From the NCBI RefSeq assembly GCF_044324785.1, contig NZ_CP172127.1: a stretch of DNA of 64,000 bases; one strand, given 5' to 3'. A program made the position numbers. The stretch's first letter is position 1. Every line of letters starts with the position of its first letter. This DNA comes from Escherichia coli (GTDB taxonomy: Bacteria > Pseudomonadota > Gammaproteobacteria > Enterobacterales > Enterobacteriaceae). Below, in pieces: positions 28,008 through 31,000 of this stretch.

Positions 28008-31000
28008 TGATGGCCGGTATTCTGAAACGGCGATTGTCGTGAGAACAGAATGGTTGCACCAGAATACAGATATAAAAAAACCGACATGACAGTCGGTTTT
28101 TTATTTTTTCCGCCCAAGACTTGGTGGTTCCGGGCAGAAATGAAACAGTCCTCATCTAGCAAGTGAATTATAAGTCAGGATGCCTACATATTCAAACAGC
28201 TATGTTGGCGATACAATCCCGACGCTAGTAGTGATACTGCCTCAAGGGATTACCGCAGTGCGGAAAAGTACTTTTAAGTCCTGGTCAGGATACAGGTGGT
28301 GCTGATTCTGGTGCTCTAATTTGGAGAGAGGCAGTCCTCATCTAGCACATGAAGAAAATCATAGTTACAGGCAACGTAAGGGTAAGCTGTGATTGTCTTT
28401 CTCCCTTAAGGGAGCAACGGATGAAAACTTTTCTCGATAAAGTTCTCATCGTTCTTATGGCGCTAATCGCGCTGCTGGAACTGAAAACCGACATGACAGT
28501 TGGTTTCATATTTATTGCCAAAATGCACACTGTTCATGCCAGATGCGGCGTAAACGCCTTATCCGGCCTACACAATCTTGCAAAATCAATATATTGCACG
28601 ATCCTCGTAGGCCGGATAAGCGTAGCACATCAGGCAATCTAACGCCTGTCATCACCCCGCAAACTGCCTGAACAGCGCCTTACCCTTAACCAGTCGCGCA
28701 CCCAGCCAGCCGCCGAAAAGCGACAGCAGCAGTGCACCGCTGCACGGCAGCACAATCCACAATCGCCAGTCTGGCTCCCACGGAAAATCAAACACTTTCG
28801 CCTGCAACACTGCCAGCGCCGTTTCCGCACCAATTGCGGCTACCAGGCCAGAAACAAACCCGAGCATGGCGAACTCACACCACAATGTCGTGCGCAGCAG
28901 TTTTTTCCCCGCACCGAGTGTGCGCCACACCACCAGCTCCTGATGACGCTGACGCATTCCCACCTGCACCTGTGCCAGCAACAACAACATACCGCAGGCG
29001 GTGACCAGCACCACCATCACTTCCAGCGCCCGACTTACCTGCTCCAGCACCTGACCGACCTGTTTTAAAATCGCGCCAATGTCTAACAGGCTAATGGTCG
29101 GGAACTGGCGGTTGAGTTGCGTCAACATGCCGTTGCCATTCTCCCAGCGGAAACTGGTAAGCCAGCTCTGCGGTTGCCCGTCTAATGCCCCTTCCGGGAA
29201 AATAAAATAGAAATTAGGCCGCAGACTTTCCCAGTCCACTTTGCGCAGGCTGGTCACTTTAGCGCGGAACTCCTGGGTATCGCCCATAAAGGTGACTGTA
29301 TCGCCGAGGGCAACGTTTAAGCGTTTCGCCAGCCCCTCTTCCATCGACACTTCATCGGCTTTTGGCGGCCAGTTACCGGCGACAATCGGATTATGATCGG
29401 GCCGCGTATTTTGCCAGGTAAGATTAAGTTCGCGATTGAGCGCCTCATCTTCATTGCCTTCTGTCGGCTTGCCGTTAATCGCCGTCAGTCTCGCCCGCAC
29501 CACCGGATAAAATGATTCCGGGACTATCTGATGTTCCGCGAGGAACGCTTTTAGCGGTGCTACCTGTTCTGTGGCGATGTTGATTAAAAAGTAGTTCGGG
29601 CTTTCTGGCGGTAGCTGCTGTTGCCAGCGGTCGAGCAGATCGCCACGCAATACCAGCAACAGCGCCAGCAGCATAAAGGAGAGCGAAAATGCCGAAAGCT
29701 GGCTTAACGTTGACCACGGCTGACGTAACAGGCGGCTAACCGCCAGGCGCAGAGGTAGCGATTTCAGCGTCATGCGGCGAAGTACATTCAGCAGCATCCA
29801 GCCCAGCACACCGCACAGCAAAGCCAGTACTACCGCGCCCGCCAGCACCGCCCAGAGCAGCATACTGCCGCCCATTAATCCGGCGAGCAGCAGCACAACC
29901 ACCACACTGACAATCGGCAGATAAAACTTGAGCGGCCAGACGTTCGCGACCACATCATTACGCAATACGCGTAAAGGCTGCGTTGCCAGCAACAAGCGGT
30001 ACGGTCGTAGCCCCACCAGCAGCGAGATGACCGTCATGGTGCCCAGCGCCCACAACCACGGCCAGAGGCTGGCTGGCGGTAGTGCAGCAGGCAAAACGGG
30101 CTTGAGCAGCACCATCAACACGTTTTCGAACAACAGGCCTATCACCCCGCCGGTAACGGCTGAAAGCGCCAGCACCATCAACCACTGACCGACGATTAGC
30201 TTACGCAGTTGCGCTCGCCCTGCCCCCAGCGTTTTGAGGATCGCCACAAGATCGTAGCGACTGCGACAGTAATGATTCATCGCCACCGCCACCGCTGCCA
30301 CTGCCAGCAGCAAGGTCAGAAGCGCCGAAAGCAGCAGGAACTGTTGCGAGCGTTCCATCGAGCGCCCCAGCGCGCCTTCGTCCTGTTCCAGACCGTACCA
30401 GCGTTGTTCGGGTTTAAGCTGGGGTAACAACCATTTCTCATAGCCGTCGAGCTGGTTCTCGTTGCCGCCGAATTTATAGCGCCAGGTGACCCGACTTCCC
30501 GGCTGCACGGCTCCGGTTTTATCGACATCCGCCAGATTCATCATCAGACGCGGAGCCATCTGGAAGGGGTTAAAACCGGAATCCGGTTCCTGAATCACTT
30601 CTCCGGCAATCCGCAAGGTGGCATCACCCACGTCGATGGTGTCGCCTGTTTTCAGGTTAAGCAGTGCCATCAGGCGTGGGGCCAGCAATACGCTGCCCGC
30701 CTGCGGTTTCAGGCCAGGGGGATTAGTTTGCAGATCGCCATACATCGGGTAGATATCATCCACCGCTTTGACGTTCGCCAGCTGCGGTGTGTCGCCTGCA
30801 AATGTCATGGTGGCGAAAGTCAGCTGCTTGCCGACTTTCAGGCCGCGCTTTTGCGCTTCCTCCAGCCACGCTTGCGGCACTTCGCGTGAACTGCGCAACG
30901 CCCGATCGCCCGCCATAAACTCCCGGCTTTGCTGGCTTAAGCCCTTCTCCATGCGATCGCTGATATTGCCCAGCGCCAGCACGCAGGCCACCGCCAGGCT

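What the first reader, a model, noticed from the sequence alone, without database searches (positions are those of the whole stretch)
28421..28642. Possible small hydrophobic ORF in the mnmH-ybbP gap
An ATG at 28,421 preceded by GGAG opens a short frame beginning MKTFLDKVLIVLMALIALLELKTD... (hydrophobic helix). The frame continues into REP sequence, so much of it is probably non-coding and I rate it as likely spurious. It is noted because small hydrophobic peptides near Rhs-type loci can be toxin or immunity remnants.
Basis: inference. Interest (0 to 1): 0.2.

Follow-up and report, generated by a model that had tools for sequence, protein, structure and literature searches.

The report
Truncated DinQ-like toxin gene remnant
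The short hydrophobic frame is not a chance ORF: it is the first 21 codons of a known kind of small membrane-toxin gene (DinQ family) that lost its end through a 70-base deletion and now runs on into repeat DNA, and its antisense-RNA antidote gene next door is still intact. This is an ordinary decaying toxin-antitoxin module.

Summary
ATG 28421 follows GGGAG, the frame begins MKTFLDKVLIVLMALIALLEL, and it runs through a REP pair to TAA 28640-28642.

The "probably spurious / Rhs remnant" reading is only half right. The mnmH-ybbP gap holds a DinQ/AgrB-type type I toxin-antitoxin module:
- An AgrB-like sRNA lies at 28159->28072 on the minus strand (Rfam 57.5 bits, threshold 40), with its own promoter.
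- The toxin gene is divergent. Its long 5'UTR carries the sRNA target (28323-28345) and a hairpin that closes the Shine-Dalgarno site.

In E. coli HS the gene encodes the 27-aa peptide MKTFLDKVLIVLKALIALLELIRQFIE, which RefSeq annotates as DinQ.

The window carries a 70-bp deletion (junction 28483|28484). It removes the last six codons, the stop and the terminator, so codons 22-73 are read-through of a terminator copy and REPs. It also carries K13M.

This allele is real: the exact product is on 309 contigs. It is absent from all 5,426 complete RefSeq genomes. About 1,326 of those genomes carry the module, and about 190 of them have a different deletion in the toxin gene while keeping the sRNA.

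There is no LexA box and no similarity to Rhs. The family is already described (DinQ; dql genes, Kristiansen 2016). Interest is low.

The parts
28072..28159 (-). AgrB-like antitoxin sRNA gene (88 nt). Its 5' single-stranded antisense end is followed by a hairpin with an ACCACC loop and a Rho-independent terminator.
   Evidence: Rfam RF02891 AgrB: 57.5 bits against a gathering score of 40, full model 1-84. Fold -30.8 kcal/mol, z=-4.6. Aligns with K-12 agrA and agrB.
28167..28195 (-). Sigma-70 promoter of the AgrB-like sRNA (TTGAAT-17-TATAAT), ending 7 nt before the sRNA 5' end.
   Evidence: Promoter scan, 10 of 12 matches. The position agrees with the Rfam start at 28159 and with the mapped K-12 agrB start in the alignment.
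28077..28109 (.). D1a, a bidirectional terminator hairpin shared by mnmH (+) and the sRNA (-). It is the left copy of a 33-nt direct repeat that bounds the module.
   Evidence: Terminator scan. Direct repeat D1 at 88% identity.
28189..28217 (+). Putative toxin-gene promoter (TATTCA-17-TACAAT), with inferred +1 near 28224. No LexA box.
   Evidence: In the 4-way alignment, TACAAT lies under the -10 of K-12 dinQ (TATGAT) and of two plasmid dql genes (TATAAT). No CTG-N10-CAG occurs anywhere in the gap. This is an inference from homology; it was not reported by the promoter scan.
28224..28420 (+). Long 5' untranslated region of the toxin mRNA (about 197 nt).
   Evidence: Homology to the 194-nt dinQ 5'UTR. 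The predicted fold is more stable than shuffled sequences, z=-3.3.
28323..28345 (+). Target site for the sRNA 5' end (23 nt: 14 Watson-Crick pairs plus G-U-rich extension). It overlaps direct repeat D2.
   Evidence: D2 repeat 28146-28167 / 28332-28353. Duplex energy -50.8 kcal/mol against -25.1 +/- 3.3 for shuffles. The cognate pair beats all non-cognate pairs.
28401..28414 (+). CTCCC-TTAA-GGGAG hairpin that closes the Shine-Dalgarno sequence.
   Evidence: Sequence read directly. SD nucleotides have P(unpaired) about 0.01 in the full-length fold and in the fold with the sRNA target blocked.
28421..28483 (+). Retained 21 codons of the DinQ-like toxin (MKTFLDKVLIVLMALIALLEL). Codon 13 (28457-28459) is ATG (Met) where intact alleles have AAG (Lys).
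   Evidence: NCBIfam toxin_DinQ matches residues 5-21 to profile positions 1-17 of 22. Alignment to HS and PCN033.
28483..28484 (.). Junction of the 70-bp deletion. The lost sequence is codons IRQFIE, the stop codon and the terminator hairpin GGCCGAAGG..CCTTCGGCC.
   Evidence: Alignments to HS, PCN033, TC_EC10 and AR_0077.
28484..28642 (+). Read-through extension of 52 codons plus stop, with no homology to any toxin. It crosses D1b and the REP pair.
   Evidence: Alignment. No family hit for this part.
28484..28516 (.). D1b, the right copy of the 33-nt terminator repeat.
   Evidence: Repeat and terminator scans.
28536..28640 (.). Pair of inverted REP elements (a BIME) between the module and ybbP.
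   Evidence: Inverted repeat I1. naRNA4 and ES036 hits. Tens of thousands of matching places across E. coli genomes.

Best explanation
The mnmH-ybbP gap carries a chromosomal DinQ/AgrB-type (dinQ-like, 'dql') type I toxin-antitoxin module, and the flagged ORF is its toxin gene in a decayed state.

In the intact form, seen in E. coli HS:
- A weak promoter makes an mRNA of roughly 330 nt with a 197-nt leader. The ribosome site is locked in a hairpin, and the mRNA's own 5' end covers the antisense target.
- By analogy with dinQ, 5' processing would free the leader for translation of a 27-aa single-helix inner-membrane peptide that depolarises the cell.
- The divergently transcribed 88-nt AgrB-like RNA pairs through its 5' end with the leader. 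This re-closes the ribosome site and exposes the duplex to RNase III.

In this window, a 70-bp deletion removed the last six codons (including the Arg and Gln that correspond to part of DinQ's Glu17/Arg20/Gln24 polar patch), the stop codon and the terminator. Translation, if it occurs, gives a 73-aa chimera: 21 toxin residues followed by 52 residues read from a terminator copy and two REPs. The allele also carries K13M. The antitoxin gene, its promoter and its target site are untouched. I consider the toxin most likely inactivated, making this a toxin pseudogene with a surviving antitoxin.

Shown here: homology, anatomy, the deletion and the population data.
Inferred: the transcription start, 5' processing, toxicity of the intact peptide and loss of function of the chimera.
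For: - sRNA: an Rfam AgrB hit above threshold sits at 28159->28072, with a consensus-like promoter exactly upstream.
- Locus homology: the whole gap aligns with K-12 agrA-dinQ, including the leader, the SD region and the ORF core.
- Annotation: RefSeq annotates the intact gene as dinQ (WP_001308457.1) at the same site in HS and PCN033.
- Peptide scores against NCBIfam toxin_DinQ (cutoff 30): intact 27-aa peptide 40.9 bits, K-12 DinQ 54 bits, the window product 21.1 bits covering only profile positions 1-17 of 22.
- Deletion: the 70-bp deletion and K13M are defined by alignment.
- Not an artefact: the exact 73-aa product is on 309 contigs, and one ENA scaffold is identical to the window over 6.2 kb.
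- sRNA-leader pairing: duplex -50.8 kcal/mol against -25.1 +/- 3.3 for shuffles. In a matrix of five sRNAs (K-12 contributes both AgrA and AgrB) against the four modules' leaders, each leader's cognate sRNA pairs best: -39 to -52 against -21 to -36 kcal/mol.
- Ribosome site: the SD is predicted paired in the full-length mRNA and in the fold with the sRNA target blocked.
- ORF core against K-12 dinQ: 4 synonymous and 3 conservative or non-synonymous codon changes in 18 codons.
- Decay pattern in 5,426 complete genomes: the sRNA region is intact in 1,314, the toxin region in 1,135, and about 190 carry a different 5' deletion of the toxin gene, for example TC_EC10.
- Family mechanism, shown experimentally by others: DinQ/AgrB (PMC3567139, PMC5066626) and DqlB/agrB on pOXA-48, including compensatory base-pair mutants (PMC12365149).
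Against: - No expression data exist for this locus, and the toxin promoter matches only 8 of 12 consensus positions, so the scan did not report it.
- The ORF is still open, with its SD, start codon and hydrophobic N-terminal helix intact. N-terminally extended DinQ forms remain toxic and a C-terminally 3xFLAG-tagged DinQ is still produced (PMC3567139). Loss of function of the chimera is therefore not proven.
- The in-silico folds did not reproduce a clearly open SD after 5' truncation: mean P(unpaired) was only 0.1-0.2.
- The deletion allele is common enough (309 contigs) that it is at least not harmful.
Confidence: 0.85

Rival explanations
1. The 73-aa frame is a still-functional chimeric toxin. 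The retained 21-residue hydrophobic head inserts into the membrane, the new tail is tolerated, and the intact sRNA is kept because it is still needed to silence the toxin.
For: - The ORF is open, and the SD, start codon, leader and sRNA target are unchanged.
- The sRNA gene and its promoter are intact.
- The allele persists on 309 contigs, and a second haplotype (K13, 5 contigs) has the same deletion.
- N-terminally extended DinQ forms stay toxic and a C-terminally 3xFLAG-tagged DinQ is still produced (PMC3567139).
Against: - The conserved C-terminal IRQFIE is lost, and the NCBIfam score falls below its cutoff.
- The tail is terminator and REP sequence, and it varies between carriers: R65L, and a 62-aa form.
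- The mRNA lost its terminator.
- Other lineages have clearly null toxin deletions yet keep the sRNA, so keeping the sRNA does not require a live toxin.
Confidence: 0.12
2. The ORF is a chance open frame in non-coding intergenic or REP DNA.
For: Codons 22-73 are indeed REP and terminator sequence. No Pfam hit.
Against: The first 21 codons match DinQ. The frame is conserved in E. coli, Escherichia sp. E1V33, K-12 dinQ and plasmid dql genes. A cognate AgrB-like sRNA lies alongside.
Confidence: 0.02
3. The ORF is a remnant of an Rhs-associated toxin or immunity gene left after loss of the rhsD island.
For: In K-12 and O157 the same intergenic site holds an Rhs element.
Against: Similarity between this gap and the K-12 and O157 regions stops at or just past the mnmH and ybbP stop codons. 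The peptide matches DinQ and no Rhs-linked family. The module and the Rhs island are alternative occupants of the site.
Confidence: 0.01

Closest known systems
dinQ-agrAB type I toxin-antitoxin locus of E. coli K-12, arsR-gor intergenic region (Weel-Sneve 2013, PMC3567139; Kristiansen 2016, PMC5066626)
   Same: - Divergent arrangement, with an sRNA start to toxin start distance of about 262 nt here against 275 nt in K-12.
- Homologous leader, SD region and ORF core (DKxxIVLxALIALLELIR).
- The sRNA 5' end is antisense to a leader site far upstream of the SD.
- SD-closing hairpin.
- Conserved GGUGGU / ACCACC second complementarity.
   Different: - One Agr gene here, not two.
- No LexA operator, so probably not SOS-induced.
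- ATG rather than GTG start.
- The C-terminus of the intact allele is QFIE rather than FLLQLLN.
- A different chromosomal site.
- In this window the toxin gene has lost its 3' end.
dql (dinQ-like) genes, dqlA and dqlB, of Enterobacteriaceae chromosomes and plasmids (Kristiansen 2016); dqlB-agrB addiction module of pOXA-48 (PMC12365149)
   Same: - One toxin gene and one AgrB-like sRNA per module, with no LexA box.
- Rfam AgrB hits at a comparable upstream distance on the plasmid modules examined.
- The intact peptide ends ELIRQFIE, close to DqlB's ELIRQFID.
- 1,661 plasmid records hold relatives.
   Different: - Only 67-69% DNA identity to the plasmid modules, and only over part of the query.
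- The DqlB NCBIfam model scores 24.5 bits, below its cutoff of 35.
- Chromosomal and fixed at one site rather than plasmid-borne.
- The sRNA pairs weakly with plasmid leaders, -25 to -28 kcal/mol.
- I could not see Kristiansen's Figure 3B or supplements, so I cannot say whether this exact locus is one of their 14 dql genes.
Other E. coli type I modules with trans-encoded sRNAs and long processed leaders (tisB-istR1, zorO-orzO, shoB-ohsC)
   Same: General logic: small hydrophobic toxin, inert primary transcript, and an sRNA that pairs upstream of the ribosome site (PMC5066626).
   Different: No sequence homology was detected here. Those families were not hit by Rfam or NCBIfam in this gap.

Membership tests
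DinQ/AgrB (DinQ and Dql) type I toxin-antitoxin family | Toxin peptide matches the curated DinQ model above its cutoff | tested here: not met
   The window's 73-aa product scores 21.1 bits against a cutoff of 30 and covers only profile positions 1-17 of 22. The intact allele at the same site in E. coli HS scores 40.9 bits, which is met. The window copy is therefore a truncated member, not an intact one.
DinQ/AgrB (DinQ and Dql) type I toxin-antitoxin family | Peptide of about 27-31 aa forming one transmembrane helix | tested here: not met
   The window ORF is 73 aa, with only the first 21 residues homologous. The intact allele is 27 aa with GRAVY 1.23.
DinQ/AgrB (DinQ and Dql) type I toxin-antitoxin family | Divergently transcribed AgrB-type sRNA gene next to the toxin gene | tested here: met
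   Rfam RF02891: 57.5 bits against a gathering score of 40, at 28159->28072. A TTGAAT-17-TATAAT promoter lies directly upstream.
DinQ/AgrB (DinQ and Dql) type I toxin-antitoxin family | The sRNA 5' end is complementary to the toxin leader upstream of the ribosome site, and specific to its own module | tested here: met
   23-nt duplex at 28323-28345. Energy -50.8 kcal/mol against -25.1 +/- 3.3 for shuffles. The cognate pair is the best in the matrix of five sRNAs against four leaders.
DinQ/AgrB (DinQ and Dql) type I toxin-antitoxin family | Long leader with an SD-closing hairpin and alternative pairings that open it after 5' processing | tested here: inconclusive
   The SD is closed in the full-length fold and in the fold with the sRNA target blocked, and the mRNA's 5' end pairs with the sRNA target. 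After in-silico 5' truncation, however, the SD is still mostly paired, to an alternative GCUCU.
DinQ/AgrB (DinQ and Dql) type I toxin-antitoxin family | Rho-independent terminator just after the toxin ORF | tested here: not met
   The hairpin GGCCGAAGG..CCTTCGGCC is present in HS and deleted in the window. Only the weaker D1b hairpin remains.
DinQ/AgrB (DinQ and Dql) type I toxin-antitoxin family | Peptide is toxic to the membrane and the sRNA neutralises it | not testable with these tools
   Needs induction and rescue assays. These have been done for DinQ (PMC3567139) and for pOXA-48 DqlB (PMC12365149), but not for this locus.
dinQ proper (the SOS-regulated, 'damage-inducible' gene) | LexA operator (CTG-N10-CAG) overlapping the promoter | tested here: not met
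   No CTG-N10-CAG occurs between 19287 and 30295 in the window. K-12 has CTGTATGATTATCCAG over its -10. The homologous window sequence is GCGATACAATCCCGAC.
Rhs-associated toxin or immunity genes | Sequence similarity to Rhs elements or their downstream ORFs | tested here: not met
   blastn of the gap against the K-12 rhsD region and the O157 Rhs region finds nothing beyond the mnmH and ybbP ends. No Pfam domain in the product.
REP / BIME repeats (3' part of the ORF) | Imperfect palindromic units of about 35 nt in inverted pairs, present many times per genome | tested here: met
   Perfect 14-nt inverted arms at 28558-28571 / 28607-28620. REP-derived Rfam hits. This stretch matches a median of 15 places per E. 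coli genome.

The most novel reading that the evidence does not exclude
The deletion allele is not dead. It would make a 73-aa chimeric membrane protein whose tail was recruited from a terminator copy and REP elements, still governed by its cognate sRNA, and kept in a successful E. coli clone (at least 309 assemblies). Alternatively, the orphaned AgrB-like sRNA has taken on another target, which would explain why it outlives the toxin in several lineages.
Probability: 0.12. Interest if true: 0.4.

Novelty: already known. Interest (0 to 1): 0.2.

Why it matters
This is mainly an annotation matter.

- A frame that looks like junk, and that some submitters call 'hypothetical protein', is the stump of a type I toxin gene. 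The functional element still present is an unannotated antitoxin sRNA.
- The locus shows how chromosomal type I modules decay. Two independent deletions hit the toxin gene (the 3' deletion here, and a 5' deletion in about 190 complete genomes) while the sRNA is kept. There are also whole-module loss alleles, and an Rhs island replaces the module in K-12 and O157.
- The RefSeq name 'damage-inducible toxin DinQ' is probably misleading for this paralogue, because it has no LexA box. The 51-aa RefSeq start is probably too far upstream.

None of this changes how the family is understood.

Tried and rejected
- LexA box search (CTG-N10-CAG): none in the gap. SOS control is rejected for this paralogue.
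- Pfam scan of the window, HS and K-12 peptides: no family; the only hit was a chance one at E=0.096.
- Phage collection, distant DNA search with the leader and ORF: no match.
- First 3-way alignment: it led me to place the -10 near 28230-28238. The 4-way alignment with plasmid modules moved it to TACAAT at 28212-28217, and I dropped the first assignment.
- Junction query: it recovered only the downstream half of the query, probably because low-complexity masking blocked seeding in the upstream half. The conclusion that no complete genome has the deletion rests on two points. A genome with the junction would have extended the alignment across it. In one search, the best hit was a 2-piece match at 99.2%.
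- In-silico test of SD opening after 5' truncation: inconclusive.
- Anti-addiction idea (the chromosomal sRNA neutralises plasmid dql toxins): not supported. Duplexes with two plasmid leaders are -25 to -28 kcal/mol, against -46 to -47 for their own sRNAs.
- Supplements of Kristiansen 2016: not held, so I could not check whether this locus is among their 14 dql genes.
- Sub-threshold Rfam hits (STnc370, RNAI, rimP, mir-509, mir-235): these are terminator or hairpin look-alikes and were ignored.
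Full report
**1. Observation**

The window around the finding reads allS (25921-26847, +), mnmH (26916-28010, +), a 641-bp gap, then ybbP (28652-31066, -). The gene names come from homologous RefSeq annotation.

ATG 28421 is preceded by GGGAG (28410-28414). It opens a 73-codon frame, MKTFLDKVLIVLMALIALLELKTDMTVGF..., that ends at TAA 28640-28642 and is nested in a 97-codon ORF starting at 28349.

The 3' half crosses a pair of inverted REPs. The arms at 28558-28571 and 28607-28620 are perfect 14-mers. There are also REP-derived naRNA4 and ES036 hits, and this stretch matches a median of 15 places per E. coli genome.

**2. What the gap contains**

An Rfam scan found an AgrB antisense RNA at 28159->28072 on the minus strand. 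It scores 57.5 bits against a gathering score of 40, and it still passes in a whole-window scan. A TTGAAT-17-TATAAT promoter lies at 28195->28167, ending 7 nt before that start. The RNA folds into a 5' tail, a hairpin and a terminator (-30.8 kcal/mol, z=-4.6).

A megablast of the gap against 5,426 complete E. coli genomes showed that RefSeq annotates 'dinQ: damage-inducible type I toxin DinQ' at this very site in HS, PCN033 and many others. The HS gene reads MKKIIVTGNVRVSCDCLSPLREQR-MKTFLDKVLIVLKALIALLELIRQFIE*.

The whole gap aligns with the K-12 agrA-dinQ region: the sRNA, the leader, the SD region and the ORF core.

NCBIfam toxin_DinQ (cutoff 30 bits) scores are:

| Peptide | Bits | Note |
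|---|---|---|
| K-12 DinQ | 54 | |
| HS 27-mer | 40.9 | |
| Window 73-mer | 21.1 | residues 5-21 match profile positions 1-17 of 22 |

**3. What happened in this window**

Against HS and PCN033 the window lacks 70 bp after codon 21, with the junction at 28483|28484. The missing piece holds codons IRQFIE, the TAA stop and the terminator hairpin GGCCGAAGGTTTACCACCTTCGGCC. The frame therefore continues into D1b, a second copy of the mnmH/sRNA terminator at 28484-28516, and then into the REPs. Codon 13 is ATG (Met) instead of AAG (Lys).

The allele is not an assembly error. The exact 73-aa product is recorded on 309 contigs, and an ENA scaffold is identical to the window over 6,222 bases. A second haplotype has the same deletion but keeps K13; it is on 5 contigs.

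None of the 5,426 complete RefSeq genomes has the junction. The best match is a two-piece alignment at 99.2%, and a junction-spanning query is never covered.

**4. Population picture**

About 1,326 complete genomes (24%) carry the module. The sRNA region is at least 80% covered in 1,314 of them. The toxin region (SD, ORF and terminator) is at least 80% covered in 1,135. About 190 retain only nucleotides 43-151 of the toxin query.

In TC_EC10, that last pattern corresponds to a deletion of about 108 bp. It removes the sRNA target, the SD, the start codon and the first codons, while the sRNA gene stays.

AR_0077 lacks the whole module and has a single hybrid D1. The same solo-D1 state is found in a divergent Escherichia lineage whose flanks are 92-93% identical to HS.

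K-12 and O157 have an Rhs island at the site and share nothing with this gap beyond the ends of mnmH and ybbP.

The locus therefore shows repeated loss of the toxin with the antitoxin kept, which is the expected decay pattern for a toxin-antitoxin pair.

**5. Mechanism**

Experimental work on the family gives the model.
- DinQ is a 27-aa inner-membrane peptide that depolarises cells. Its primary mRNA is inert, a 5'-processed form is translated, and AgrB pairs with the leader, re-closes the SD hairpin and triggers RNase III cleavage (PMC3567139, PMC5066626).
- The plasmid homologue DqlB/agrB of pOXA-48 was shown to be a toxin-antitoxin addiction module, with compensatory base-pair mutants (PMC12365149).

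The same parts are present here.
- The sRNA 5' end pairs with 28323-28345 (14 Watson-Crick pairs plus G-U-rich extension). The duplex energy is -50.8 kcal/mol against -25.1 +/- 3.3 for shuffles.
- I compared five sRNAs (window, K-12 AgrB and AgrA, a Klebsiella IncX1 plasmid, a Salmonella plasmid) with the four modules' leaders. Each leader's cognate sRNA pairs best: -39 to -52 against -21 to -36 kcal/mol. The sRNA and its target have therefore co-varied between modules.
- A second conserved complementarity, GGUGGU in the leader (28295-28300) and ACCACC in the sRNA hairpin loop, is present in all four modules.
- The SD lies in a CTCCC-TTAA-GGGAG hairpin at 28401-28414.
- In the predicted full-length fold the mRNA's own 5' end covers the sRNA target and the SD is paired (P unpaired about 0.01). 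Blocking the target, as bound sRNA would, keeps the SD closed.
- In-silico 5' truncation opened the SD only slightly, so that step is not reproduced.

A 4-way alignment places the toxin -10 at TACAAT (28212-28217) and +1 near 28224.

The K-12 LexA operator CTGTATGATTATCCAG overlaps the homologous -10. It is absent from this gap and from both plasmid modules. The RefSeq label 'damage-inducible' is therefore unlikely to hold for this paralogue.

**6. State of the window copy**

The deletion removes the conserved C-terminal residues. These include the Arg and Gln that correspond to part of DinQ's Glu17/Arg20/Gln24 polar patch (PMC3567139). It also removes the stop codon and the terminator, and the frame gains 52 unrelated residues. 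The tail varies among carriers: R65L, and a 62-aa form.

I judge the toxin most likely inactivated. This is an inference, because the ORF, SD and hydrophobic head are intact, N-terminally extended DinQ forms stay toxic and a C-terminally tagged DinQ is still produced. A live chimera gets about 0.12.

**7. Comparison with what is known, and novelty**

The family was defined by Weel-Sneve 2013 and extended to chromosomal and plasmid 'dql' genes by Kristiansen 2016. T1TAdb lists them (PMC8594479). RefSeq already annotates the intact gene at this site.

The intact peptide has a DinQ-like core and a DqlB-like C-terminus: ELIRQFIE against ELIRQFID. It passes the DinQ model but not the DqlB model. 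Relatives sit on 1,661 plasmid records, mostly conjugative. None were found in phages.

I could not check whether this exact locus is among Kristiansen's 14 sequences, because the supplements are not held.

The verdict is a known kind of element, present here as a decayed allele. Interest is low. The value lies in correcting the annotation: the unannotated sRNA, the toxin stump, and the doubtful 'damage-inducible' label.

Noticed in passing
window 28077-28109 and 28484-28516; L007; L012 11916-11939: The module is bounded by two direct copies of a 33-nt bidirectional terminator (D1). Alleles with a single hybrid D1 and no module exist in E. coli AR_0077 and in a divergent Escherichia lineage. 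The module therefore behaves as an insertion/deletion unit. Whether it arose by insertion with duplication or is lost by D1 x D1 recombination is unresolved. The D1 stem resembles the K-12 agrA/agrB terminator stem.
   Followed up: partly
L013 3230-3960 (Escherichia sp. E1V33): The module is 99.4% identical and the REP region 100% identical to E. coli HS, while the flanking mnmH is 94.8% and ybbP 96.8% identical. Non-coding DNA is far more conserved than its flanking genes here, which suggests recent lateral exchange or strong constraint.
   Followed up: partly
L008 (E. coli TC_EC10) and about 190 complete genomes: An independent deletion of about 108 bp removes the sRNA target, the SD, the start codon and the first codons of the toxin gene, while the AgrB-like gene is kept.
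   Followed up: partly
window 28295-28300 (+) and 28123-28128 (minus-strand RNA loop): A second complementarity, GGUGGU in the mRNA leader against ACCACC in the sRNA hairpin loop, is invariant in the window, K-12 and two plasmid modules. It is a possible loop-contact seed.
   Followed up: no
window 28349-28420; L001 1840-1995: RefSeq calls a 51-aa product from an upstream ATG and names it 'damage-inducible'. By analogy with DinQ peptide V the active product should be the 27-mer from the inner ATG, and no LexA box is present.
   Followed up: partly
window 28011-28651 compared with L004 and L009: The DinQ-like module and the Rhs island (rhsD in K-12, an RHS core in O157) are alternative occupants of the same mnmH-ybbP intergenic site. 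Homology ends within 0-49 nt of the flanking stop codons.
   Followed up: yes
window 14984-15050 (-) and 37132-37209 (+): The whole-window Rfam gathering scan also reports the sRNA STnc480 and a full-length naRNA4 (REP-derived) element.
   Followed up: no
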